This document shows positions 1 to 13,645 of a stretch of 64,000 bases of DNA, in pieces (position 1 is the first letter of the stretch; every line of letters begins with the position of its first letter). The position numbers and the translations under genes are program-made. The notes below the pieces were generated by a model. That model did not search any database, was not told where the DNA came from, and saw only the letters and a list, made by a program, of their open reading frames with translations. Source of the stretch: Tolypothrix carrinoi HA7290-LM1. Lineage in GTDB: Bacteria > Cyanobacteriota > Cyanobacteriia > Cyanobacteriales > Nostocaceae. The stretch is from positions 1-64,000 of the forward strand of contig JAHHIK010000012.1 in the NCBI GenBank assembly GCA_019358935.1. The letters are read 5' to 3'.

Positions 1-80
1 TTCTGGGGGGCTTTTTAATTTTTGGTCATTGGTCATTGGTCATTGGACGCCATCGCATAACAGATTGCGACGCACCCATC

Positions 81-117
81 AAAAAACCGCCCTTACCTTT
101 GCAGGCAGGACGGTTTT
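81..117 (-). terminator. Intrinsic terminator after the minus-strand ORFs at 116-526
   Basis: Minus strand reads ACCGUCCU-GCCU-GCAA-AGGU-A-AGGGCGGU-UUUUU: a GNRA-capped stem followed by a U tract. Confidence 0.75.
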
Positions 118-526
118 ATTCAGGTTCCTTTGCACCTTTATCAGAAATCAATTGCAGGATCTGACCTTCAAGCTCTTGGATGGCTTTTTTGAAGTCGTTT
201 TCACTTTCCTTACTTTCGTCAAGTCTGGTGATGAGCCGTTGCTGGTGTGACCTGACATAAGAAAGATGCTTTTCTTCAATTAGCTTGAGGGCTTCTAGAA
301 TTTCCCCAGGATTTGAACTTCTGGATTGGCTAGACTTACACCTACTTCCCCTGATGCTAGACCCCTGATCATCTGGGACGTGTCCTTGTATCCCATTGAC
401 TTGGCTTTGCTTAGTAGGGCATCCCTCTGTTCCGGAGAAAGCCTTACCGATAATCTCGCCTCTTGGTTTGGCAATGTTTTCGGGCGTCCGGGCTTTTGTG
501 GCGTTGTCATTGTTGCTTTCACTCAT
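116..526 (-). CDS. Hypothetical protein, disordered N-terminus and coiled-coil C-terminus
   Basis: 136-aa ORF with AAGG upstream of the ATG; heptad-like C-terminal half (ILEALKLIEEKHLSYVRSHQQRLITRLDES); terminator directly after the stop. Confidence 0.6.
   Translation of the reverse strand: MSESNNDNATKARTPENIAKPRGEIIGKAFSGTEGCPTKQSQVNGIQGHVPDDQGSSIRGSRCKSSQSRSSNPGEILEALKLIEEKHLSYVRSHQQRLITRLDESKESENDFKKAIQELEGQILQLISDKGAKEPE
295..510 (-). CDS. Ribbon-helix-helix (CopG/MobC-like) DNA-binding protein, in an alternative frame overlapping 116-526
   Basis: PGRPK followed by RLSVRLSPEQRDALLSKAKSMG..TSQMIR, which fits the RHH strand-helix-helix pattern. Confidence 0.6.
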   Translation of the reverse strand: MTTPQKPGRPKTLPNQEARLSVRLSPEQRDALLSKAKSMGYKDTSQMIRGLASGEVGVSLANPEVQILGKF

Positions 527-546
527 ATACCTTTTCTCTATTGTAA

Positions 547-633
547 TTTTGTCAGCACAAAAAGTTTTGTGTTCACACTTGACTTATAATTTGGGGTGTA
601 CGATTATGTTAACAGAGTTTTGTGAAAACAAAA
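547..633. promoter_or_regulatory. Two candidate operator palindromes TTTTGT-N4-ACAAAA in a divergent promoter region
   Basis: Copies at 547-562 and 618-633; TTGACT at 579-584 and TATAAT at 585-590 lie between them. Confidence 0.5.
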
Positions 634-855
634 TTATAGAAAGCTCCCTCCCCACATTTGCCTAGTGCCCGTGGGGACACACCAATAAACCGGAGCAAAT
701 CACCCGCGCCTAGACCTTGCGCGGAGACACCCTAAAACGCGATCGACAGTCACATAAAAATTTGCCCCCGAACAAAAGCTTTCATCGTTTCGCAGGAGGA
801 TACCAAAGACGAAGATCACAAAACACAAAATACTAGCATTTACCTTTTTTAAACC

Positions 856-905
856 TGCCAGCAGTAACTGTGAGTATTGTTGTTGCGGCGCTGCTGGCAT
901 TTTTT
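856..905 (+). terminator. Terminator-like hairpin in the rightward leader
   Basis: TGCCAGCAG (856-864) / CTGCTGGCA (891-899) followed by TTTTTT. Confidence 0.5.
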
Positions 906-1023
906 GCACGCCCTTTAATTGCAAGGAGTGTGGGCGTGTAAATTATCCACATATATATGAGGAAATGCCTATGCAGCAATAGTCACGACTACTTCTATGC
1001 ACTCCAATTTCCAATGACGTAAA

Positions 1024-1064
1024 ACACCAGCACTACGCTTGTGGCTTTATGCTGGTGTCTTTTT
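1024..1064 (+). terminator. Second terminator-like hairpin, upstream of ORF 1086
   Basis: ACACCAGCA / TGCTGGTGT followed by CTTTTT. Confidence 0.55.
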
Positions 1065-1085
1065 AATCCAACTTGAAAACTTGAT

Positions 1086-1277
1086 ATGCAATCAAACCAC
1101 AAACCCAACATCAACCCGTGGGCAATTTTTCGCTGCTTTGAACCTACCCGCCAGGTGTGCGTAGCTCGATTTCGTCGGCGCTCTGAAGCTGACGGACACA
1201 TCAAAACTCTACGGCGGATGATTCCGCAGGGACGTTTTGAAGTGCTTTTTGACCTAGGGGAGAAGGTCGCAGAATAA
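1086..1277 (+). CDS. Small conserved cyanobacterial hypothetical protein
   Basis: PW.I.R...VARFRRRSEADGH...LRR.IP...FEV.FD motif, recalled as a widespread small cyanobacterial family. Confidence 0.7.
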   Translation: MQSNHKPNINPWAIFRCFEPTRQVCVARFRRRSEADGHIKTLRRMIPQGRFEVLFDLGEKVAE

Positions 1278-1428
1278 GGATAGCTTAATTTTAAAGGCGA
1301 TGCCGAGTACGGCAACGCTTCCGCAGAGCGGACGAGGGGCGCGAACGCGAACGCGCTTTGTGTGTGCAGAGTGCGATCGCCCTTGGATAGTTAAGCCATG
1401 TGTATTTTATCACCGAGGCTGAAATTAA

Positions 1429-1632
1429 ATGAATTACAAAACCATTACTTATCAAAGGGTAAAAAACCTTGGTAATTACGAAAGTGAACGACTAGAAATG
1501 ACCATTGAACTAAATGAAGGTGAGAACCCTTTGACTTGTGCAGACGCTTTAAGGCTAGATGTAAATTACATTTTAAATCAGACTGTTCCAGATCCAAAGC
1601 CATTGTCCAAAAAAGTAGAAGAGGGGTTTTAA
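1429..1632 (+). CDS. Phage-like small hypothetical protein (NLGNYES motif)
   Basis: 67 aa; GAGG upstream; KNLGNYESERLEMTIELNEGE. Confidence 0.7.
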   Translation: MNYKTITYQRVKNLGNYESERLEMTIELNEGENPLTCADALRLDVNYILNQTVPDPKPLSKKVEEGF

Positions 1633-1635
1633 ACC

Positions 1636-2037
1636 ATGAAAATTAAAAGATTACACGCACATTTTCTGATTTCAACTGGTAGTTACAACAACGAAAGAAT
1701 TGGATTTTCTGTTGAATTAAACGAGGGAGAATCTGTCGAAGAAATTGTAACTAATTTGAGATAAAAAGCAATAACTATTATTGGAGGAACAGCACAAGAG
1801 TATTACGACCGGATAAGAGAATTTAAACGCGAATGCCTTCAACTGGAAGAAAAATTAAATAAACTACGCAAGGAATGGGACGCAACAGCAGCATTTTTAA
1901 AAGCTCAAGGCTTAAATCCAGAAGCCCCATCAATGCCTCAGTTTCGCAACTTGCTTGAAGCTGTAACCGTACAGTCTGAAGTTGTCACAGAAGATGAGGA
2001 CGACGAGGAGGACGACGACGATGACGACGATTATTAA
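1636..2037 (+). pseudogene. Paralog of 1429-1632 with coiled coil and acidic tail, interrupted by an in-frame TAA at 1762-1764
   Basis: Manual translation: MKIKRLHAHFLISTGSYNNERIGFSVELNEGESVEEIVTNLR*KAITIIGG...EDEDDEEDDDDDDDY*; the frame stays open after the internal stop. Confidence 0.7.
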
Positions 2038-2038
2038 A

Positions 2039-2095
2039 CCGCCTGATGAGCTGGACTAAAAAAGCCGGCGAAACTCCCCCACAAGGGAGTCGCGG
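2039..2095 (+). ncRNA. Type I hammerhead ribozyme, predicted cleavage after C2091
   Basis: Stem I CCGC/GCGG; core CUGAUGA (2043-2049); stem II GCUGG/CCGGC; GAAA (2070-2073); stem III CUCCC/GGGAG; GUC triplet at 2089-2091. Confidence 0.9.
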
Positions 2096-2315
2096 ATCGA
2101 GTCCAAATCATTCGCCTGTAAACAGTGCAGTAATTTAGGGCTTTTCAGTGGAATCAAGCATCACTGCTTTTAATTATTTCATAAGCTCGGTTACTGCACT
2201 TTCTACAGTTTCCCTCGTAGTGCCATGCGGCACAGCCTTGAGAGTGAGTTAGGCTCCGTGCCTTTGGGTGATTCGCAGGCTTTTATACGGGGCTAGTAAC
2301 CAACAACCACACCCA
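2092..2315 (+). ncRNA. Structured non-coding RNA upstream of the IS110 recombinase (candidate bridge/guide RNA)
   Basis: Long stem AGUGCAGUAA/UUACUGCACU with inner CAGUG/CACUG; second domain closed by CCUCGUA/UACGGGG containing three hairpins; position 5' of the recombinase gene. Confidence 0.55.
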
Positions 2316-3515
2316 ATGCATATGAATAAAAGAATTTTGGGACTTGATATTAGCAAGTCCTCAGTTTCTATGTGCTTACTTGAAAGCAAGCCAAACGATC
2401 CACGTCAATTTTATTATGAATGTCCGTTTATGTTGTTTAGCGCCAACAGTGAGGGGATAAAAGCACTGTTGGCGCTAAAACCGGACATCGCAATTATGGA
2501 ACCGACCGGTGTTAATTACTCAAAGCTTTGGGGAACACACTTAGCCCGTGCCGGGGTCGAGGTCAGGCTTGTGGGACACAAAGAATTGAGGAATTACCGC
2601 TCGTCACATCTAAGTTTACCGGATAAGGATGATGATGCCGATGCCCTAGCACTGGCTTGTTACTACTTTGATTACTTCGATTCTCCCAGGCGCTTTGTCC
2701 AAATTCGGGACTTCACCACAACCCGCATCCGAGAACTGGTGCTGAGATTGGCTCACCTCAACCGGGTGCAATCGCCGATCGTCAATCGCTTACGTCAAGA
2801 TTTGGCGTGGCAGTTCCCGGAAATCGCACATGTAAATTCCCGGCGGGGAATTGATGGGGATGTGCCTTTATTGTGGGGTTGGTTGTGTGGGGAACGTAAA
2901 AGCAAACGATATGATAATTTGCGCGATCGCTCTATTGGGCTGGGAGTCACCGACACGGTTCGGCATCACGCCAGCCGTCTGTGTGACTTGCAACGAGAGG
3001 AACACAGCATTGAAACCGAGTTACACCAGCTTCTGGCTGACTCAAAGTTTACCGCTTACCGCCAGGTTTTCAAAAGCTTTGGTTTTGGGCTGCGCTTGGA
3101 GTCAATCATCCTCTCCCAAATTTACCCTATTGAGAATTACTTCGGTGCTGACGGTAAGCCAGAGGTGAGGATTCGTAAGGGTCGAAAGTCTGGAAAGCCA
3201 ACTAAACGTTACCTGTCACTACGTCGATTCCAGAAATCTCTAGGGCTTGCACCGTCCTTAGAAGCGTCCGGTGATAAAAGTAAAATTAAGATCCAAGGCG
3301 GTTCTGATTTGTGCCGTATTGCCTTCTGGCAATGGGTTTTTACTCGCATCGAGGTTAAGCGCTGCCGTCTAAATAACGAGATTGGGGAAATACTCGGCGC
3401 TCAGTTCGATACTGAAAAGGCAGCGGGGCGTCCAGTGAGGTTGGTGCGATCGCGCATTAGTGCCAAAGCTGCAAAGTTACTATTTCGGGAATTGGTAAAG
3501 GCAATTGTACAGTGA
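2316..3515 (+). CDS. IS110-family transposase/recombinase (DEDD RuvC-like domain plus Tnp domain)
   Basis: ILGLDISK, IMEPTG, KDDDADA (equivalent to KTDxxDA) and GLAPSLEASG with the catalytic Ser are all present; likely start ATG 2316 or 2322. Confidence 0.9.
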   Translation: MHMNKRILGLDISKSSVSMCLLESKPNDPRQFYYECPFMLFSANSEGIKALLALKPDIAIMEPTGVNYSKLWGTHLARAGVEVRLVGHKELRNYRSSHLSLPDKDDDADALALACYYFDYFDSPRRFVQIRDFTTTRIRELVLRLAHLNRVQSPIVNRLRQDLAWQFPEIAHVNSRRGIDGDVPLLWGWLCGERKSKRYDNLRDRSIGLGVTDTVRHHASRLCDLQREEHSIETELHQLLADSKFTAYRQVFKSFGFGLRLESIILSQIYPIENYFGADGKPEVRIRKGRKSGKPTKRYLSLRRFQKSLGLAPSLEASGDKSKIKIQGGSDLCRIAFWQWVFTRIEVKRCRLNNEIGEILGAQFDTEKAAGRPVRLVRSRISAKAAKLLFRELVKAIVQ

Positions 3516-3715
3516 CTAACAGAAACGATTCTTTTTCCCCTTGTCCTAATTGCCACTGTAACGCTTACGGACTATTCCCGTATTGGATCTTACGTGCCAA
3601 CCTAGAACAAGTGCGGGTTCGCTTATTCCACTGTGTTAACTGCGGTTACGAGCCAGAAGTTAAAGAAGCTAACTTAGTAGATCCAACTCAACGGGACAAA
3701 AGGACAAATAGGTAG
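3512..3715 (+). CDS. Small zinc-ribbon protein, translationally coupled to the IS110 gene
   Basis: CPNC...CVNC pairs; GTGA start/stop overlap. Confidence 0.6.
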   Translation: MTNRNDSFSPCPNCHCNAYGLFPYWILRANLEQVRVRLFHCVNCGYEPEVKEANLVDPTQRDKRTNR

Positions 3716-3802
3716 AATTATATTTGGTCAAACCTGCGGAGATGGGGGTCAGCTGTAAGGGCAGGTGTCGCTGTCCCAACCTCCTTTATAACTAACTAGA
3801 GT

Positions 3803-3988
3803 GAAATATTAAGCGAAACTCACTATCAACAACTTCCAGAAAAAGCGATTCAACGCTTGGGTATGCAACTCCATCAGAAAAATCTCTTGGTGCGGATGAC
3901 TTTACGGAGTTTGCACGCATCAATTACGAATCAACACGCTAATATCTTACGCGATTTAGTTTACCAGCGAATTCATCAAGGTGAATAA
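3803..3988 (+). pseudogene. Orphan C-terminal fragment of a PheS-related ligase (SrmL-like, ferredoxin-fold anticodon-binding-like domain)
   Basis: EILSETHYQQLPEKAIQRLGMQLHQKNLLVRMTLRSLHASITNQHANILRDLVYQRIHQGE*; in-frame TAG at 3797; family recalled, not searched. Confidence 0.55.
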
Positions 3989-4145: not shown

Positions 4146-5405
4146 TTAACTTTTAACTTTCTCCACTCCTCGCATCGCTAAAAGCGCTGTCCCATACGCT
4201 GCCTGCGTATTTACAGGATGCGGCATGTCAACTTGCAAACACTTTGCTCTCATCGCTCCCCAAGTGTCATTCACCGCACCACCTCCAGCGGTGTAAACAC
4301 GCTTTAACTTATCTGCTCCAAGCCGCTGTAGTAATTCATACCCTCGATACTCTATCCGTGCCATACTTTCCAGCAACCCGTGTAAAAATTCCACAGGATT
4401 ATCTGGACGCGGTTCTAATCGCGGTGGTAAATTTGGGTCATTAATTGGAAAGCGATCGCCAATTTTCAACAACGGATAATAATCTAACCCGCAATATTTG
4501 CTTACATCAATTTCACGACTGTATTTTTCTAACTCAGCATCCGTGAAAAATTGCCGCAACACTGCACCCCCAGTATTAGAAGCACCCCCAGTTAACCACA
4601 AATCGCCTAAACGGTGGCTGTAAATTCCATACCTTGCATCTTCCACGCGGGTACGACTCAACAGCTTTAACACCAGCGTCGAACCCAGAGAAGTCACCGC
4701 ATCACCGGGTAATTTTGCACCACTGGCGATAAAAGCGGCGATACTATCAGTTGTACCCGCACACACTAAGCAATCTTTAAGGAAACCGAATTTAGCCGCA
4801 ATTTCTGGAAGTAATTGAGCGATCGCACTCCCAGGAGTTACTACTTTTGGTAGATGAATTCGTATTTGCAGTTCTTCTAGCCATTCCGGGTATCGAAAAT
4901 TTTCCACGTCATAACCCAACTTCAAAGCGTTGTGGTAATCGCTTATACCCAATTTTCCATGCAATAAAAACGCCAGCCAATCTGCCTGATGCATGAAATA
5001 TTTAGCTTCTGCGAAAGATGGTTGTAAGGACATCCACAGAAGTTTAACTAAGCTGGAAGTAGCGCTTAATACGGTATGATTTGCGGGTGCGACATTTTGC
5101 AAGCGTTCCAACATGACTGCACCCCGCGCATCATTGTACAACAGCGGTGCGTCTACAAGCTCTCCAGCGGCATCGCACAGCATGACGGTAGAGGAAGTTC
5201 CATTGATGGCGATCGCCTTTATTTTAAGGCGCAATTCTGAGGGGATTTGTTCTAACAAGGTAAACAAAGCCGTTTGCCAGCAAGTTGTCTTACCTTCATT
5301 TGACATGGACCAAGGATACCGCACCTCTGAAAGTATATTCCCTTCAAAGTCAATCACCACACCCCTAGCACCAGAAGTCCCAAAATCTATACCCAGATAA
5401 AACAT
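4146..5405 (-). CDS. FGGY-family carbohydrate (pentulose) kinase
   Basis: LGIDFGTSG, GTTDSIAA, SLGSTLV and TAGGGA motifs. Confidence 0.9.
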   Translation of the reverse strand: MFYLGIDFGTSGARGVVIDFEGNILSEVRYPWSMSNEGKTTCWQTALFTLLEQIPSELRLKIKAIAINGTSSTVMLCDAAGELVDAPLLYNDARGAVMLERLQNVAPANHTVLSATSSLVKLLWMSLQPSFAEAKYFMHQADWLAFLLHGKLGISDYHNALKLGYDVENFRYPEWLEELQIRIHLPKVVTPGSAIAQLLPEIAAKFGFLKDCLVCAGTTDSIAAFIASGAKLPGDAVTSLGSTLVLKLLSRTRVEDARYGIYSHRLGDLWLTGGASNTGGAVLRQFFTDAELEKYSREIDVSKYCGLDYYPLLKIGDRFPINDPNLPPRLEPRPDNPVEFLHGLLESMARIEYRGYELLQRLGADKLKRVYTAGGGAVNDTWGAMRAKCLQVDMPHPVNTQAAYGTALLAMRGVEKVKS

Positions 5406-5580
5406 ATATTAATTTTTTCTAAAAAAGCTTGACAAATAACCAATGCCCCATGCCCCATGCCCCATGCCCCATACCCAATAATTGCTTTTTGTAACAAGTT
5501 ATTCCCCAATCTTGGCAAAACAGGGAAAAGTAGTAAACGAACCGATGAAAATTCCGATTCTATTTGGAGGATTCGCTTTT

Positions 5581-5679
5581 ATGCATATATCTGATACTCA
5601 AGTCTTCATAGCTCTGGTTGTGGCGCTAATTCCAGGGATTCTGGCTTTGCGTTTAACAACAGAACTTTACAAATCTTAA
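5581..5679 (+). CDS. psaM: Photosystem I subunit XII
   Basis: [36 protein letters not shown] ribosome-binding site upstream. Confidence 0.92.
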
Positions 5680-5986
5680 GTTGCCTGATATTGGGACTGT
5701 AAATTAGGGATTAAGAAAAAATACCATAAGTTTTTCATCATTAATCCCTAATCGCTAATATCCCCATCTGCCATCCCAGGCAAAGTATCAAAAAGCTAAT
5801 AATCCTGGCAGTACGAAAGCAGTTTCCATCTTGCGGCTTGATACCGTGGATTGTCGGCAACTGACTACTTACGTTTGCCAGGTTTATTTTTAACTATTAA
5901 CATACGTGTAGCAATCTCGAAAAAATGAAGTAATATGACAGCTAAATAAAACCGTAATTAGTCTTGGTTAGATTTTTACGGTCAGT

Positions 5987-6427
5987 ATGACAGCAGTTCG
6001 CGAGGTTATTTTTAATACTATGAATGCATTTCAACCTTCCAGACCCCCACTAGAACCTATACAAAAACGTCGGGTTGCTCCAAGACCACGCCGACATCTA
6101 AGACAACGTTCTTATCAGGTAATGGCATTGGAAACTACGGTAAAAATAGGGGTTAATGTTGTCATTTCAGTCGCCGCAGCATCTGCCTTGGTACAACTTT
6201 TGCCTTACCATTGGTTACAGCAAGACAAATTAAGAGAAATTGGCACTGAAGTCAAGTTGATGGAAGTACGTGTCAACACTTTAAACACAAAATTTAGCCG
6301 TAACTTCGATCCACGCGAAAATAAAACTATTATGCAACAACAATCTTATCGATTTGACCCCAGCCAGCGTCAGGTCGTGATTATAAATAAAGATGGCTCA
6401 GAAGTCGAACAATTACCTGATCGCTAA
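5987..6427 (+). CDS. Conserved cyanobacterial membrane protein with coiled coil (slr1601-like); probable start 6020
   Basis: Basic N-terminus, one transmembrane helix, coiled coil, FDP motif. Confidence 0.7.
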   Translation: MTAVREVIFNTMNAFQPSRPPLEPIQKRRVAPRPRRHLRQRSYQVMALETTVKIGVNVVISVAAASALVQLLPYHWLQQDKLREIGTEVKLMEVRVNTLNTKFSRNFDPRENKTIMQQQSYRFDPSQRQVVIINKDGSEVEQLPDR

Positions 6428-6649
6428 TCACCAACAGTTAATAGTTAATAGCTATTGGTTTTAAAACTATATAGTTATTATCTATTAGCTGTTAGTTCAA
6501 TATTATTGCTTTGTTATTATTAAAAATTAGCTTATTTTTGGAAATTACTTGCACCCACATCAACTTATTTTTTCTTTCACAAGCAAACGCAATTTAAGTA
6601 TAATATGCTATGCGACGTGCTTTGAAAATTAATAGATTTTTGAAATACA

Positions 6650-6870
6650 CGTAGGGTCCGGCTTAAAGGGGTGTGGATGTTCCTCCCCCTTTAGAGTCCG
6701 TTGTGTTAGGACGAAGTCCGTAACGCACCAAGAGCTATTGATGGTGCGTTAGGCTCCGAAGAGGGCACCCAACAAGACTACTAAGTATAATATGCGACGT
6801 GCGGCAAAATGAATAGACACGCTCTATTAGACATAAAAGTCGTAGGGACAATTCATGAATTGTCCCTATA
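6650..6870. repeat. Cluster of REP-like palindromes
   Basis: GTAGGGACAATTCATGAATTGTCCCTA and TAACGCACC...GGTGCGTTA. Confidence 0.6.
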
Positions 6871-7169: not shown

Positions 7170-8183
7170 ATGACTAACACAGCGATTAAAAGTCAAACCA
7201 CCACTGAAGTACTCGACATTCCTAAACAGGGAATGCCAGTCACAATTATTACAGGATTTTTAGGAAGCGGTAAAACCACGCTGCTTAACCAAATTCTCAA
7301 GAATAAGCATGACTTAAAAGTTGCTGTCCTTGTTAACGAATTTGGGGACATTAATATAGACAGTCAGTTGCTCGTATCAATGGATGAAGATATGGTAGAA
7401 CTGAGCAATGGCTGTATTTGTTGCACAATTAATGATGGCTTAGTTGATGCTGTTTATCGAGTTTTAGAGCGAGAAGATAACATCGATTATTTGGTAATTG
7501 AAACTACTGGTATTGCCGATCCACTGCCGATTATCCTTACCTTTCTCGGTACAGAACTTCGAGATTTAACTAAAATCGATTCTATCATAACTGTGGTAGA
7601 TTCAGAGGCGTTTACCCCGGAACATTACGAAAGTGATGCAGCATTAAAACAAATAACTTATGCAGATGTGATTCTGCTGAATAAAACTGACCTCGCAACT
7701 CCAGAAAAGTTGGAGGAATTAGAAGCTTATATTCAGGATGTGAAAGGGGGAACCAGAATTTTGCATACTAGATATGGGGAAGTAGCGTTACCTTTAATTT
7801 TAGATGTGCAGTTGACTCCAATAGATGAGTATACTTCTAAAGTGTCAGAAGATACTCACGAGCATCATCACCATCATGAGCATCACTCCAATCATTTAGA
7901 AAATGATGGATTTGTATCTGTATCTTTTGAAAGCGATCGCTCTTTTGATATCCACAAATTTCAAACATTTCTTACCGAACATTTGCCAGAAAATGTCTTT
8001 CGCGCTAAAGGTCTACTTTGGTTCAGCGACAGCAACTTAAGACATATTTTTCAACTTAGCGGACCGCGTTATCAATTAGATGCAGATGAATGGAAAACTC
8101 AGCCGAAAAATCAATTGGTTTTGATTGGTAAGCATCTGGATAATAGCAAAATTCACTCTTTACTAAACGAATGTTTAGTATAA
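7170..8183 (+). CDS. COG0523 (CobW/ZigA-like) G3E GTPase metallochaperone
   Basis: GFLGSGKTT, GCICC, ETTG, NKTD, His-rich tract and C-terminal FRAKG. Confidence 0.93.
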   Translation: MTNTAIKSQTTTEVLDIPKQGMPVTIITGFLGSGKTTLLNQILKNKHDLKVAVLVNEFGDINIDSQLLVSMDEDMVELSNGCICCTINDGLVDAVYRVLEREDNIDYLVIETTGIADPLPIILTFLGTELRDLTKIDSIITVVDSEAFTPEHYESDAALKQITYADVILLNKTDLATPEKLEELEAYIQDVKGGTRILHTRYGEVALPLILDVQLTPIDEYTSKVSEDTHEHHHHHEHHSNHLENDGFVSVSFESDRSFDIHKFQTFLTEHLPENVFRAKGLLWFSDSNLRHIFQLSGPRYQLDADEWKTQPKNQLVLIGKHLDNSKIHSLLNECLV

Positions 8184-8191
8184 CCTTGAAA

Positions 8192-8206
8192 TGATTATCA
8201 TTATCT
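8192..8206. promoter_or_regulatory. Zur-like box
   Basis: TGATTATCATTATCT just before ATG 8211. Confidence 0.6.
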
Positions 8207-8210
8207 TAAA

Positions 8211-9452
8211 ATGGAAAATACTCCGCCCTCCTTACCGAATAAAATTGACCTAGCAATTATTGGTGCAGGTCCTCATGCATTAACATTAGTAACTCACTTG
8301 CTGCAAAAGCGGCAAAGTATGCAGGGTAAGTTTCTCGTGTTTGACCCTAGTGGTAAGTGGATGAGTCGCTGGAATCAACAATTTGCGGCTTTGGAAATTC
8401 CCCATTTGCGATCGCCTGCCGTTCATCATCCCGACCCAAATCATTTTGGCTTGCGTAAATTTGCTGAGAATCGCTCAACTGAATTACACGTACCTTATGA
8501 TTTACCGGGAACTCAGCTATTTGCAGATTTTTGTCAGGATGTAATTCATCGCTTTGCATTGCAGCAGCAAGTAATTCCCGGTTTGGTAACTCGCATTGAA
8601 CCTTTGCCTCACCTAATTCATCCTCGCTTGCGTTTGTGGTTGCAAGATGGACAATCAATTATTGCACGGCGGGTGGTATTGGCAACAAATAGCGCTAAAA
8701 TTCAGATACCCGATTGGGTAAACCAGATTGAGTCAGCGTATCCTGAAGATAGACTTTGCCACTCTAGCACCGTAGATTTACGTAAAATAGCCTTAACGGG
8801 TGAAAAAGTATTAATTGTCGGTGGTGGGTTAACCAGTGGACACTTGGCTGTAGGTGCCATTTCTCGTGGTGCAAAAGTTCACTTGATGATTCGCCGACAG
8901 TTGCAAGAAAAATTATTCGATGCCGAACCGGGTTGGTTGGGACCGAAGTATCTCAAGGGATTTTTTGCCGAACAAGACTATCAGAAGCGCTTTGAGATGA
9001 TTGTGCAAGCGCGTAACGGTGGTTCCATGACACCAGAAACGGGAATGCAGTTGCGCCGACAAGTACATAGTGGTAATCTGAAGATTGGCGAAAACTGTCA
9101 AATTGTCAAAGCTTCCTTCGTTGGTGAAAATTGGCGAGTCGAATGCAGTGATGGTAGTCAACATGAATGCAGTAGAATTTGGCTTTCCACCGGCACTAAA
9201 TTTGATGCCACATCTGAAGCTTTATTAAAAGAAGTTTTCGCAGCTTATCCAATCAAGATAGTTAATAATTTGCCGATTCTAGATGAACATTTGCGCGTTC
9301 CGGGTTGTGAATTATTTCTGATGGGTGGGTTAGCAGCTTTACAAGTCGGACCAACTGCGCGGAATTTATCTGGTGCGAGAATGGCAAGTGAAAAGATTGT
9401 ACCAGCAATTGTTAAATCAAGTCTCGCACTTTCACAGCTTAGAAGTGCTTGA
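8211..9452 (+). CDS. FAD/NAD(P)-dependent oxidoreductase
   Basis: IIGAGP, HLRSPAVHHP and IVGGGLTS motifs. Confidence 0.85.
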   Translation: MENTPPSLPNKIDLAIIGAGPHALTLVTHLLQKRQSMQGKFLVFDPSGKWMSRWNQQFAALEIPHLRSPAVHHPDPNHFGLRKFAENRSTELHVPYDLPGTQLFADFCQDVIHRFALQQQVIPGLVTRIEPLPHLIHPRLRLWLQDGQSIIARRVVLATNSAKIQIPDWVNQIESAYPEDRLCHSSTVDLRKIALTGEKVLIVGGGLTSGHLAVGAISRGAKVHLMIRRQLQEKLFDAEPGWLGPKYLKGFFAEQDYQKRFEMIVQARNGGSMTPETGMQLRRQVHSGNLKIGENCQIVKASFVGENWRVECSDGSQHECSRIWLSTGTKFDATSEALLKEVFAAYPIKIVNNLPILDEHLRVPGCELFLMGGLAALQVGPTARNLSGARMASEKIVPAIVKSSLALSQLRSA

Positions 9453-9468
9453 TTTGACTGCCTAAGAA

Positions 9469-9483
9469 TGATTATCATTATGA
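9469..9483. promoter_or_regulatory. Zur-like box
   Basis: TGATTATCATTATGA just before ATG 9485. Confidence 0.6.
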
Positions 9484-9484
9484 T

Positions 9485-10279
9485 ATGTTGCCAATAATTA
9501 CCGTCGTTGCCGGTTCGGTCGGCTGTGGCAAAACTACTTGGATTTCCCAACAGCTGGCTTTAAGAGAGGATGAAAACGTATTATATTTTAGTCCTGGTAC
9601 TGGCACTGTTCCCATTGACCAGACACGCATCGCTGCTCAATTTCCTACAGCTAAAGTCTTCAATGACACTCAACAAGCTGAGTTTATCAAGCAACTCGCT
9701 TCTTCGGATGCTGTCTACATAGAATTGGGGTTTTATTTGGAATTAAGCGCAGTAGGGCAAATATTAAATAATTTATCGTATCGAGCGATAGCGAAGCGCT
9801 GCTGCCTTCGGCAGATCGCCATCCTACCACCACACCTAAAAGATTCTGAATGGCATTCCTGGGCAAACGAAATTATACCAGGAGTTGATATTCAAACTAT
9901 GACACCAGGTAAATTGTGGCGTTTTTCCTGCACTGGTGAAGTTGTCGAGGAAAACAGCTTAGAAGAGTTTTGGTATGAAATAACACACGGCGCTTATCAA
10001 ACAGTCAACCGTGCTAAAGGCATTTTTAATGTCGATGATGGACGGTATCTCTACGCTGATTTTACTGCTGGTGTTAGCAAAAGTGATTTTATCGAATTAA
10101 ATTCACCCCGTCATTTAGAAGGTAGACCACAACGTTTTAGTGGGTTAGAAATTTTTGCCGAAAACTTAGATGAAGTCAACTTCAGGCAAACATTGCAAGA
10201 TTGCTATTTATCTGAATCCGCCATTTTATATTACCAAGAACAGGCGAAACAATTACTTACAGAGGAGATTCAAGCGTGA
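9485..10279 (+). CDS. Divergent COG0523-like protein (Walker A plus CobW C-terminal domain)
   Basis: GSVGCGKTT and VNRAKG are present; no CXCC or NKxD visible. Confidence 0.75.
   Translation: MLPIITVVAGSVGCGKTTWISQQLALREDENVLYFSPGTGTVPIDQTRIAAQFPTAKVFNDTQQAEFIKQLASSDAVYIELGFYLELSAVGQILNNLSYRAIAKRCCLRQIAILPPHLKDSEWHSWANEIIPGVDIQTMTPGKLWRFSCTGEVVEENSLEEFWYEITHGAYQTVNRAKGIFNVDDGRYLYADFTAGVSKSDFIELNSPRHLEGRPQRFSGLEIFAENLDEVNFRQTLQDCYLSESAILYYQEQAKQLLTEEIQA
9785..9819. repeat. 27-nt small dispersed repeat (SDR5-like) inserted in frame into a HIP1 site
   Basis: GCGAT-AGCGAAGCGCTGCTGCCTTCGGCA-GATCGC. Confidence 0.65.
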
Positions 10280-11085
10280 AAATAGCGGTTATATCATGTA
10301 TTCATGGCAACTATGAAGCCTTTGATGCTGTCTTGCTAGATATCGACAAACACTCATGCGAAAAAATCTATTGTCTCGGTGATTTGGTGGGATACGGTCC
10401 TCATCCAAATGCAGTTATTGCCCAAATTCGTTCTTTAGATATTCCCACTTGCGTTGGTTGTTGGGATGAAGATGTTGTTGAGGGATTGAACGCTTGCGAA
10501 TGCAGTTATCCTTCATTGTTAGCAGAGAAACGCGGACATTTAGCTCACGAATGGACAAATAAAGAAATTCATCCAGAAAACCGTACCTTCCTAGCACAAT
10601 TACCTTACAGTTTGCGTGAGGAAAATTTAGCTTTCGTTCACGGTAGTCCTCACAGCAACCACGAATATTTATTACCAGAACTCGATTCTTTTGTAGCGTT
10701 AGAACGAGTACTTTCTACAGGGGCAGATGTACTATTTTGCGGTCATACTCATGTGCCTTATGTGCGTACTTTAGATGCCGGAAACTTACAAATTCGTGTT
10801 AAAAGTAACAGCAAAGAACAGGAGATTAGTTTTAATGCATCTTTAAAGCGAATTGTCAACGTTGGTTCAGTGGGAGAACCCAGACATGGGCGATCGCACG
10901 CAACTTATGTTATTTATGACACCGAATCTCAACAAGTAACCCTGCGAGAAGTTCCTTACGACTACCAAAAAACTTGTGCAGCGATTATCGAAAAAGGCTT
11001 ACCAGCAATTTTCGCATGGCGTTTAGCGCAAGGATTGGAATATGCAGAAAAAGCTGACGATCCGACTCATGTTTGTATGAGATGA
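10276..11085 (+). CDS. Calcineurin-like metallophosphoesterase
   Basis: SCIHGN, LGDLVGYG, HGSP, GHTH and NVGSVG motifs. Confidence 0.88.
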   Translation: MKIAVISCIHGNYEAFDAVLLDIDKHSCEKIYCLGDLVGYGPHPNAVIAQIRSLDIPTCVGCWDEDVVEGLNACECSYPSLLAEKRGHLAHEWTNKEIHPENRTFLAQLPYSLREENLAFVHGSPHSNHEYLLPELDSFVALERVLSTGADVLFCGHTHVPYVRTLDAGNLQIRVKSNSKEQEISFNASLKRIVNVGSVGEPRHGRSHATYVIYDTESQQVTLREVPYDYQKTCAAIIEKGLPAIFAWRLAQGLEYAEKADDPTHVCMR

Positions 11086-11087
11086 GG

Positions 11088-11240
11088 AGTTAGTGGTTAG
11101 TGGTTAGTGGTTAGTGGTTAGTAGTATTTTGACAACTATCAACCATCAACCAACAACTATCAACCATCAACCATCAACTATCAACTATCAACCATCAACC
11201 ATCAACCATCAACCATCAACTATCAACCATCAACTATCAA
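11088..11240. repeat. Heptamer STRR-type tandem repeats (TAGTGGT / CAACYAT)
   Basis: Directly visible tandem 7-mers. Confidence 0.9.
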
Positions 11241-11246
11241 AATCAT

Positions 11247-11996
11247 ATGAAATGGGCTATTTTAAGTGGAATCGAAGGTAATCTAGCGGCTTATGAAGCT
11301 GTGCTGGCAGATATTAAGCGTCAAAGTCGCTCGATAGAAGCATTGTATATTCTTGGTGATTTAGTCGGACCAACACGAGAATCTGAAAAATTGGTAGAAC
11401 GGGTGCGTAAACCCTTCAGGGGAGAATTAGAACCCCTCGTTTGTAAGGGATGGTGGGAGGAGCAATGTTTAATTTTACACGGTCTTGGTGCTAACGGTGA
11501 ACCGACTGAGTTGATAGAGAAATATGGAGGAGAAACGGTAAAATTATTGTGGGAATCTGTTTCTCGTCAGACAGTGCAATGGATTAGAAACTTGGATTTT
11601 GGCTTCTTTGAACTGGATTGTTTGTTAATTCACGGAACAAGCGTATCTGTGAGCGAAAAATTAACACCTGAAACTTCGCCAATTATTATGTGCGATCGCC
11701 TCTCCCGAATGCAAGCCAATAACTTATTCTGTGGTCGTTCTGGTTTATCCTTTCAATACCAACTACAAGCAGGTTCCATCACCACAGCAGTCACCACCCT
11801 CGATAGTCAAGCTTATAATAATACCATCAAAATGACCCCAAGTCAAATTATTGGCGTAGGTAACGTAGGACGCACTCCCGGAGAAGCAACCTACACCCTC
11901 TACAACCCAAACGCAAATCAAGTCGAATTCAAAACTGTCCGCTACGGACAAAGCAAAGGTTTTGCAGTCCACAAAATTAAAGCTATTTCAAATTAG
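11247..11996 (+). CDS. Degenerate metallophosphoesterase paralog
   Basis: SGIEGN, LGDLVG, KGWWEE, CGRSG: metal ligands are altered. Confidence 0.8.
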   Translation: MKWAILSGIEGNLAAYEAVLADIKRQSRSIEALYILGDLVGPTRESEKLVERVRKPFRGELEPLVCKGWWEEQCLILHGLGANGEPTELIEKYGGETVKLLWESVSRQTVQWIRNLDFGFFELDCLLIHGTSVSVSEKLTPETSPIIMCDRLSRMQANNLFCGRSGLSFQYQLQAGSITTAVTTLDSQAYNNTIKMTPSQIIGVGNVGRTPGEATYTLYNPNANQVEFKTVRYGQSKGFAVHKIKAISN

Positions 11997-13068: not shown

Positions 13069-13161
13069 TTATTTTTACCTAACGCGAAGGGCGATCGCCA
13101 AATATTAAAAAATGTAATGTAAATGTTAATAAAATGGTAAAAGTGGTAAGCTACTTTAATG

Positions 13162-13282
13162 CGATCGGTTCTGATGGAAAGCCATCAGACGCAAGGGGGA
13201 AAGTTCGGTGTAAATCCGGCACTGTCCCGCAACTGTGATGAGACGTGGAATCTAGTCTCAGAGTCAGAATGCCCGCCGATAG
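13162..13282 (+). ncRNA. Cobalamin riboswitch
   Basis: GGGAAAGTTCGGTGTAAATCCGGCACTGTCCCGCAACTGTGA...AGTCAGAATGCCCGCCGAT (B12 box) upstream of a TonB receptor gene. Confidence 0.92.
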
Positions 13283-13645
13283 TAACATTAAACACCCATC
13301 TGCGAGGTACGGATGATACATCAGAATTTTCATGTCAGCTACAGATATAAGTTGCAATTCGTGCATTACTTCCAATCAAATACTGTTCTTATTTGTTAAT
13401 AATTATTCTCATTAATTATTTAGTGTCTTGGTAGTTTTGCTTTGAAAGCATTAAGACACTAACGGTCTTCATCGTCATAAGTCTGCTTTCGATAAAGCAG
13501 ATAGGAATGAGCGCAAAATCTCTCTTAAACTCTGTGTCCTCTGCGATCTGGTGCGGTTCGTCCCGTCCGTAAAGGAGTGCGTAAGTCCTGGCAGATTTAA
13601 ATTTTGTTTGCGGAATAAACGAATTAACTCACAGCGACAAGTCTT

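What the first reader, a model, noticed from the sequence alone, without database searches (positions are those of the whole stretch)
2092..2315. Two-domain structured RNA between the ribozyme and the IS110 gene: candidate atypical bridge RNA
Seen: domain 1 (~2126-2208) is a long helix CUGUA..AGUGCAGUAA/UUACUGCACU..UACAG, extended by GGGCUU/AAGCUC, enclosing CAGUG/CACUG and a large AU-rich bulge. Domain 2 (~2213-2292) is closed by CCUCGUA/UACGGGG and holds hairpins GUGCC/GGCAC, AGCCU/AGGCU and GCCU/AGGC. Known: IS621-type bridge RNAs have separate target- and donor-binding loops. Inference: this is the guide, but the multi-way junction differs from the symmetric internal loops I would expect, so it may be a distinct architecture.
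Basis: partly seen in the sequence, partly recalled or inferred. Interest (0 to 1): 0.75.

Follow-up and report, generated by a model that had tools for sequence, protein, structure and literature searches.

The report
Ribozyme-released guide RNA steering provirus-like integration
This folded RNA is the guide that tells a DNA-splicing enzyme where to insert a roughly 15,000-base virus-like element into cyanobacterial chromosomes; a self-cutting RNA motif sits directly in front of it and probably frees it, and almost every copy carries its own address matching its own insertion site.

Summary
The RNA is a real bridge RNA with the canonical two internal loops, not an atypical multi-way one. The variable loop's 5-nt guides match each element's own flanks: right 53 of 73 perfect (shuffled mean 0.9), left 23 of 26. 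The constant loop matches the element ends and co-varies with them (14 of 14 variants). The surprise is the context. The IS110 gene ends a 7.8-17.1 kb syntenic, prophage-like element (27 complete copies). The window holds its right 3.8 kb; the left end is on contig C47, and three relatives hold the empty site. A type I hammerhead sits at the RNA's 5' end in 78 of 86 homologues, predicted to cut after 2091. Target guides are nearly private (69 distinct of 70) and differ at 125 of 190 positions against 55 expected at the silent rate. Cleavage, expression, recombinase activity and virion formation are untested.

The parts
1..3805 (+). Right 3.8 kb of a large integrative (prophage-like) element; the contig starts inside it. 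Left end on G000:C47:58831-59194
116..526 (-). Element ORF (136 aa; family present in 8 of 27 complete elements); an overlapping frame at about 298-489 matches a small family present in 18 of 27
1086..1277 (+). Small right-arm ORF (family in 9 of 27 elements)
1429..1632 (+). Small right-arm ORF, 67 aa (family in 9 of 27 elements)
1636..2037 (+). Paralogous ORF with acidic tail, broken here by an in-frame TAA (open in copy C98); its stop lies a few bases before the hammerhead
2038..2104 (+). Type I hammerhead ribozyme: core CUGAUGA 2043-2049, stem II 2050-2069, GAAA 2070-2073, stem III 2074-2089, GUC 2089-2091 with predicted cut after 2091, stem I 2038-2042/2092-2096, pseudoknot 2053-2057/2100-2104
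   Evidence: no Rfam match; cleavage not tested
2116..2208 (+). Bridge RNA domain 1: basal helix plus target-binding loop
2146..2153 (+). Left target guide CAGUG plus core GAA; matches the left flank on C47
2172..2180 (+). Right target guide AAUUAU plus UUC; 6 nt instead of the usual 5; matches the right flank (3806-3810) if one U is bulged
2213..2292 (+). Bridge RNA domain 2: closing stem, optional accessory hairpin 2220-2233, nested donor-binding loop 2235-2280 (outer 2235-2238/2277-2280, inner 2251-2254/2260-2263)
2241..2248 (+). Left donor guide AGAGU plus core (GAG here and in 9 of 79; GAA in 70 of 79); matches the element's right end
2266..2274 (+). Right donor guide GGGUGA plus UUC; pairs with the element's left end GAATCCCC if its U is bulged
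2322..3515 (+). IS110-family recombinase, 397 aa (alternative ATG at 2316); D9, E60, D104, D107 and S316 invariant in 69 of 69 intact homologues; NCBIfam NF051857 570 bits (cut-off 180)
3512..3715 (+). Variable zinc-ribbon-like passenger ORF between recombinase and right end
3797..3805 (+). Element right end TAGAGT plus core GAA; host DNA resumes at 3806
   Evidence: a contig of run X2 matches from 3803 onward

Best explanation
2092-~2295 is the bridge RNA of an IS110 recombinase that serves as the integrase of a ~14.5 kb prophage-like element of cyanobacteria. Shown by comparison: the target is T-N5-GAA-N5, read by loop 1; the donor is the joined element ends TAGAGT-GAA-TCCCC, read by loop 2; integration splits the target at the GAA core without further duplication. 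Inferred: the left end is about 13 kb away, so the IS621 route (a promoter formed across the circle junction) cannot make this RNA. It is more likely transcribed as part of the right-arm operon, and the type I hammerhead cuts after 2091 to give it a defined 5' end and detach it from the upstream genes; how the 3' end is made is unknown. Inferred: insertion destroys the target and perfect 14-bp sites are rare, so new guides are favoured. Point mutation, slippage in the U runs and recombination between co-resident copies supply guides, and those with a matching site integrate, which explains near-private, fast-evolving guides. The element is probably a temperate virus of an unclassified kind (my estimate ~0.55).
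For: Right guide vs right flank 5/5 in 53 of 73 (10,000 shuffles: mean 0.92, max 7). Left guide vs left flank 5/5 in 23 of 26 (shuffled mean 0.98, max 7). Donor guide matches own right end in 74 of 75, and all 14 variant guides are matched by variant ends. Fresh set of 12 loci, incl. a 35-37% identity clade: 8 of 8 left ends found match 5/5; right 8 of 10 at 5/5 and 2 at 4/5 (read by eye). Empty site in G168, G183, G206. The predicted donor junction exists in DNA: tandem dimer on G037:C10 and metagenome contigs of 12.7 and 16.0 kb, L278 and L280. Hammerhead in 78 of 86, control 2 of 276; a co-oriented ORF ends within -12..60 nt of it in 57 of 77. Catalytic DEDD and Ser invariant. Only 8 of 74 foreign guides have a perfect site in G000, 69 of 74 have a one-mismatch site. 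Phage-like cargo: amidase in 3 and GH108 in 3 of 27, collagen repeats in 9 of 27, Cro/CI-type HTH, a beta-sandwich protein in 17 of 27 whose top fold hit is an STIV turret domain (Z 9.0, rmsd 2.6, 83 aligned; tied with an unrelated fold at Z 8.9).
Against: No RNA data and no assay: cleavage, expression and activity are inferred. 20 of 73 right guides are imperfect. 8 of 86 lack a parsable hammerhead, and L329 has matching flanks but no hammerhead motif in the 330 nt printed, so the ribozyme may not be essential. A 193-aa tyrosine recombinase is present in 26 of 27 elements with an unknown role. No capsid, terminase or relaxase family was identified among the representatives scanned. This window's copy may be decaying: 6-nt right guide, a stop in the upstream ORF, and its left arm is not assembled. 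Elements are mosaic, so CDS silent divergence is an imperfect clock for the guide segment.
Confidence: 0.85

Rival explanations
1. Atypical multi-way-junction guide RNA as the reader drew it (two small hairpins in domain 2, CAGUG/CACUG hairpin in domain 1).
For: These pairings are possible in this one sequence; the single-sequence fold contains the CAGUG/CACUG-type helix.
Against: Anchor-only counts 40 of 83 and 39 of 83 vs 75 of 83 and 80 of 83.
Confidence: 0.03
2. A dedicated mechanism rewrites or hypermutates the target guide (e.g. copying the new flank into the guide, or recombinase-driven half-guide swapping).
For: Guides differ at 125 of 190 positions vs 55 expected from four-fold sites in 19 disjoint close pairs, donor guides at 1 of 190. 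L091/L092 differ at 5 sites in about 1,480 nt, 2 of them adjacent inside the right guide. Three same-genome pairs share the whole left guide but not the right. Perfect sites are rare yet most insertions are perfect.
Against: Two near-identical copies in G427 keep identical guides at a perfect and a 4/5 site. L140 sits in a site that matches L138's guide while its own guide differs at 6 of 10. L137's flanks match co-resident L004's guide at 9 of 10. So guides are not reset to the flank on insertion; trans-mobilisation and recombination explain mismatches. No reverse transcriptase among the representatives scanned.
Confidence: 0.2
3. An ordinary IS110 that grew by accreting neighbouring DNA (the expanded IS110 loci of Hu et al. 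2026); the hammerhead is an incidental prophage ribozyme.
For: Large cargo-bearing IS110 loci are reported; hammerheads are common near integrases in prophages (Perreault 2011).
Against: Both ends are full donor matches, sizes cluster (median 14.5 kb), gene order is conserved across 27 elements and in a clade whose recombinase is only 35-37% identical. The hammerhead keeps its place 129-286 nt before the start codon while upstream genes change.
Confidence: 0.1
4. The tyrosine recombinase integrates the element and the IS110 module is a passenger.
For: PF00589 protein in 26 of 27 elements.
Against: Flanks share only T and GAA, differ between elements, and are predicted by each element's RNA loop; ends co-vary with the donor loop.
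Confidence: 0.03

Closest known systems
IS621 bridge RNA / IS110 recombinase (Durrant 2024, PMC11208160; Hiraizumi 2024, PMC11208158)
   Same: RNA upstream of the CDS; variable first loop and conserved second loop; four guides, each including the core, with the same strand polarity; a discontinuous right donor guide; DEDD plus Ser.
   Different: 3-nt GAA core with 5+5 guides and a fixed T at -6; element ~14.5 kb rather than ~1.3 kb; RNA ~13 kb from the left end, so no junction promoter can drive it; hammerhead at the 5' end; no separate 5' stem-loop before the target loop, an optional hairpin between the loops instead; a different target for nearly every copy rather than a repeated REP target.
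Expanded cargo-bearing IS110 loci (Hu et al., bioRxiv 10.64898/2026.08.14.744561)
   Same: IS110 with bridge RNA bounds elements far larger than 2.5 kb; circles and tandem copies occur.
   Different: There: stepwise accretion of plasmid-derived and resistance DNA, usually one half-matched donor arm; the terms cyanobact, Nostoc and ribozyme have 0 occurrences in its main text. Here: a fixed syntenic phage-like backbone with two full donor ends.
Neisseria filamentous prophages with ISNgo2 (discussed in PMC3454330)
   Same: A transposase of the prophage proposed to act as its integrase through a circular intermediate (that ISNgo2/Piv is IS110-family is recalled, not taken from a call).
   Different: Those are ssDNA filamentous phages; no ribozyme or guide variation in the passages read; this element carries lysis-type and fibre-like genes and no recognised inovirus markers.
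Type I hammerhead ribozymes with pseudoknot in prophages (Perreault 2011, PMC3088659)
   Same: Core CUGANGA/GAAA/NUH, stem I open, loop II-3' tail pseudoknot, location near an integrase.
   Different: Here it is fixed to the 5' end of a guide RNA; below all Rfam thresholds.

Membership tests
IS110 bridge RNA system | DEDD RuvC-like domain plus Tnp domain with catalytic Ser | tested here: met
   PF01548 31.5 bits (cut-off 29), PF02371 17.1 (below cut-off 21.3); NF051857 570 bits; residues invariant in 69 of 69
IS110 bridge RNA system | Two internal loops, first variable and second conserved | tested here: met
IS110 bridge RNA system | Target-loop guides co-vary with insertion-site flanks | tested here: met
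   53 of 73 and 23 of 26 perfect vs shuffled ~1
IS110 bridge RNA system | Donor-loop guides match the joined element ends | tested here: met
   74 of 75; 14 of 14 variants; junction seen in 3 contigs
IS110 bridge RNA system | Insertion around a short shared core, verified by empty site | tested here: met
   empty site in 3 of 10 other genomes of the genus, a related element at the same site in 1
IS110 bridge RNA system | RNA required for and able to reprogram recombination | not testable with these tools
   needs assay
IS621-like compact IS | ~1.5 kb element with RNA in the left end driven by a junction promoter | tested here: not met
   27 complete elements are 7.8-17.1 kb with the RNA near the right end
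Type I hammerhead ribozyme | CUGANGA, GAAA, NUH and three stems, stem I open | tested here: met
   window and 78 of 86 elements; control 2 of 276
Type I hammerhead ribozyme | Score above an Rfam hammerhead model threshold | tested here: not met
   no hammerhead match at gathering or E<=10; divergent hammerheads below threshold are reported
Type I hammerhead ribozyme | Self-cleavage | not testable with these tools
   no assay, no RNA reads
Temperate bacteriophage | Recognisable major capsid or packaging gene | tested here: inconclusive
   none named among representatives scanned; one beta-sandwich model ties STIV A223 with unrelated folds; second model low confidence
Temperate bacteriophage | Lysis genes, repressor, fibre-like genes, circular form | tested here: inconclusive
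   amidase 3 of 27, GH108 3 of 27, collagen 9 of 27, HTH_3; end-joined junctions, which may be circles or tandems
Temperate bacteriophage | Particle production | not testable with these tools
   needs induction and microscopy

The most novel reading that the evidence does not exclude
An unclassified family of small temperate cyanobacterial viruses uses an RNA-guided IS110 recombinase as its integrase, matures the guide with a hammerhead, and diversifies the 10-nt target address by a dedicated mechanism, so the attachment site is reprogrammed in nature from lineage to lineage.
Probability: 0.2. Interest if true: 0.93.

Novelty: new variant of a known kind. Interest (0 to 1): 0.8.

Why it matters
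It gives a natural example of a bridge recombinase moving ~15 kb as a unit, with dozens of naturally reprogrammed guide-target pairs that define the rules of a new scaffold (T-N5-GAA-N5, tolerated one-base bulges, variable donor arms). It suggests how a bridge RNA can be made without a junction promoter, by ribozyme release from an operon, which is directly usable in expression designs. It also makes testable how RNA-guided elements find new targets: guides here change faster than silent sites. Finally it points to a widespread, unannotated prophage-like family: 129 of 301 sampled genomes of the family carry a recombinase match, and 28 of 301 across the phylum.

Tried and rejected
Rfam: no match in 1900-2500 above noise. 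First guess for the left end (GAATCACC, read straight from the guide) failed; the real end is GAATCCCCA, which needs a bulged U. One search aligned the wrong coordinates (script bug; it shows only the hammerhead and upstream DNA) and one search had a parsing bug; neither is used for counts. The constrained nested fold returned the unconstrained structure and is not used. A stricter hammerhead parser found 46 of 86 because of lazy matching (control 0 of 146) and was replaced; the pseudoknot count (67 of 78) has no control. Viral collections: no recombinase relative in IMG/VR or among the 80 listed pattern loci, no relative of family A4, none in INPHARED; A3 could not be searched. No PDB sequence match for the recombinase or for A3 and A5; ESM Atlas blank for two cargo proteins; A4 vs A5 not similar; viral fold searches weak. 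No RNA holder listed; four DNA runs laid. Promoter scan at chance level (6 vs 4.8). A preference for inserting into genes was not seen: 5 of 25 sites lie in an open frame of 120 codons or more. Obligate rewriting of the guide to the flank was rejected. Literature searches found no paper linking IS110 or bridge RNA to a ribozyme or to such cyanobacterial elements; the library lacks most subscription papers, and I read no supplements (those of bioRxiv are closed), where this family could be tabulated.

Full report
Observation. Downstream lies a 397-aa IS110-family recombinase (PF01548; NCBIfam NF051857 at 570 bits) whose D9, E60, D104, D107 and S316 are invariant in 69 of 69 intact homologues, matching the DEDD-plus-Ser arrangement of IS621 (PMC11208158, passages). 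Rfam has no match here. The closest named relatives are in Tolypothrix, Hassallia and Nostoc.

Structure. I collected homologous loci and kept 90-91 de-duplicated elements; a general parser resolved both loops in 79 of 90. In a 49-sequence alignment (those with about 69% or more protein identity; one with a long insert left out) the basal helix co-varies, the GGGCUU/AAGCUC stem and AAGC/GCUU cap are 100% paired, and domain 2 is nested (99.5% and 100% paired, with 3 and 11 two-sided changes; RNAalifold agrees). Both loops follow one template. The closing stem and accessory hairpin are real, but the hairpin varies in length and the loop spacing ranges from 59 to 151 nt.

Loop 1 reads the target. 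Nearly every recombinase gene is followed within 2.5 kb by T, five bases, GAA. The five bases after it equal the reverse complement of the right guide in 53 of 73 elements (7 at 4/5, 13 at 3/5 or less; shuffled mean 0.92, max 7). Left out of that count were the tandem junction L147, the two guides that are not 5 nt long (this window, L070), and loci without an end in range. An earlier, stricter parse gave 39 of 60. Left ends (GAATCCCCA) lie 6.6-15.6 kb upstream; of 33 loci with 11 kb or more upstream, 26 had the motif and 23 matched the left guide 5/5 (shuffled mean 0.98). The base at -6 was T in 24 of 24. For this window the left junction is on contig C47, 364 nt from its end, and G168, G183 and G206 hold the uninterrupted site with 90-95% left-flank identity. 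The site lies in a 231-aa host ORF. The window's right guide has six bases and fits the flank if one U is bulged, at the position where the donor guide always has a bulge; in the distant clade the left donor guide also carries one extra base.

Loop 2 reads the element's own ends. The left donor guide is AGAGU in 65, AGACU in 11, AGGCU in 2 and AGAAU in 1 of 79, and all 14 variants are matched by the same variant at the right end. The predicted end-to-end junction exists in a tandem dimer on G037:C10 and in two metagenome contigs of 12.7 and 16.0 kb, where left-arm genes follow it. A fresh set of 12 loci confirmed the rules, also in a clade with 35-37% recombinase identity: 8 of 8 left ends found, right 8 of 10 perfect and 2 at 4/5; one 30% relative did not parse, three had no left end in range, one no right end by my pattern (read by eye).

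The element. 27 copies with both ends span 7.8-17.1 kb (median 14.5) with conserved order: a leftward arm of unknown genes including a long coiled-coil or collagen protein (26 of 27) and a beta-sandwich protein (17 of 27), a 193-aa tyrosine recombinase (26 of 27), regulators, then a rightward arm of small genes ending in hammerhead, bridge RNA and recombinase. Cell-wall hydrolases occur in a minority (amidase 3, GH108 3 of 27). No capsid, terminase or relaxase family was named among the 53, 42 and 20 representatives scanned. The beta-sandwich model (pLDDT 83) has STIV turret A223 as top hit at Z 9.0, tied with unrelated folds. I call it prophage-like, not a proven virus.

The ribozyme. A complete type I hammerhead was parsed in 78 of 86 elements and 2 of 276 control segments; the cut site is GUC in 72 and GUA in 6. 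A co-oriented ORF ends right at the ribozyme in 57 of 77 and no promoter stands out. In IS621 the RNA is driven by a promoter formed across the circle junction (PMC11208160, passages and section 7); that cannot apply at 13 kb distance, so release from the right-arm transcript is the simplest reading. This step is inferred.

Guide turnover. 69 of 70 guide pairs are distinct. In 19 disjoint close pairs the target guides differ at 125 of 190 positions against 55 expected at the four-fold rate, the donor guides at 1; kinship and mosaicism make the nominal p value too small. Only 8 of 74 foreign guides have a perfect site in this genome. For an active mechanism: two adjacent changes in the right guide among five differences in about 1,480 nt, and shared half-guides in three same-genome pairs. 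Against resetting to the flank: identical guides at a perfect and a 4/5 site in G427, L140 and L137 sitting in sites that fit another element's guide, and C98 and C127 sharing one guide that fits only C127's right flank. IS621 excision is reported not to need target match (10.64898/2026.08.31.748434, abstract and outline only), so perfect matches probably reflect selection at integration. I favour diversifying selection plus recombination.

Comparison. It is a member of the IS110 bridge-RNA systems on every feature testable here, and not an IS621-like compact IS. Large IS110 loci are in print (10.64898/2026.08.14.744561: abstract, first 2 of 7 parts, discussion and a term search) but as accreted plasmid cargo. 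Transposase-mediated prophage integration is proposed in Neisseria (PMC3454330, passages). Prophage hammerheads are known (PMC3088659, passages). The COMPASS preprint (10.64898/2026.10.21.760802, passages and sections 8 and 9) treats bridge RNAs and hammerheads separately in what I read, and its empty-site search extends only 1 kb around the gene. Ten searches found no report of this combination; unread supplements may list the family, whose protein already has an NCBIfam model.

Verdict. Observation partly confirmed; guide yes, atypical fold no. New variant of a known kind: a ribozyme-fronted bridge RNA serving as the programmable attachment system of a widespread prophage-like element. Interest 0.8.

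Noticed in passing
G000:C47:58831 and 58969; also C59, C21, C120: Left ends often hold a second GAATCCCCA 66-138 nt inside the first (nested ends), perhaps from stepwise capture of flank or stacked insertion.
   Followed up: no
G000:C101:26778-26863, C33:4520-4803, C145, C21: Short non-autonomous derivatives with both ends (86 bp, 284 bp, 1.4-1.8 kb); likely mobilised in trans.
   Followed up: partly
G000:C102:~4990-6703: A 35%-identity paralogous system with its own hammerhead and bridge RNA; right guide fits its flank 4/5, and a left end on C52 fits its left guide.
   Followed up: partly
window 2181-2182 and 2275-2276: The two bases after UUC in both loops are mostly purine-pyrimidine and could pair with the GT before the core, and the two after GAA in loop 1 are often UC like the donor; this resembles handshake guides.
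   Followed up: no
L103 (G025:C48): A related, internally deleted element sits at exactly the same host site as the window's element.
   Followed up: partly
L104:988-1683: Host ORF split by the insertion; resembles a phenylalanyl-tRNA-synthetase-like protein (recalled, not searched).
   Followed up: no
window 13149-13294: Cobalamin riboswitch (RF00174, 54.3 bits); ORFs at 7170-11996 look like a metal-chaperone GTPase and metallophosphoesterase cluster (recalled from the translations).
   Followed up: no
L331 (G334:C1): A 30%-identity recombinase with hammerhead and element core genes but a differently built downstream RNA.
   Followed up: no
L087:3565-4143, L084:17278-17652, L122:15877-16731: Interchangeable left-arm modules (one 193-aa plus one 87-aa gene, or two to three ~120-aa paralogues with basic tails) and a 280-aa family; candidate virion proteins without any family or fold match found.
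   Followed up: partly
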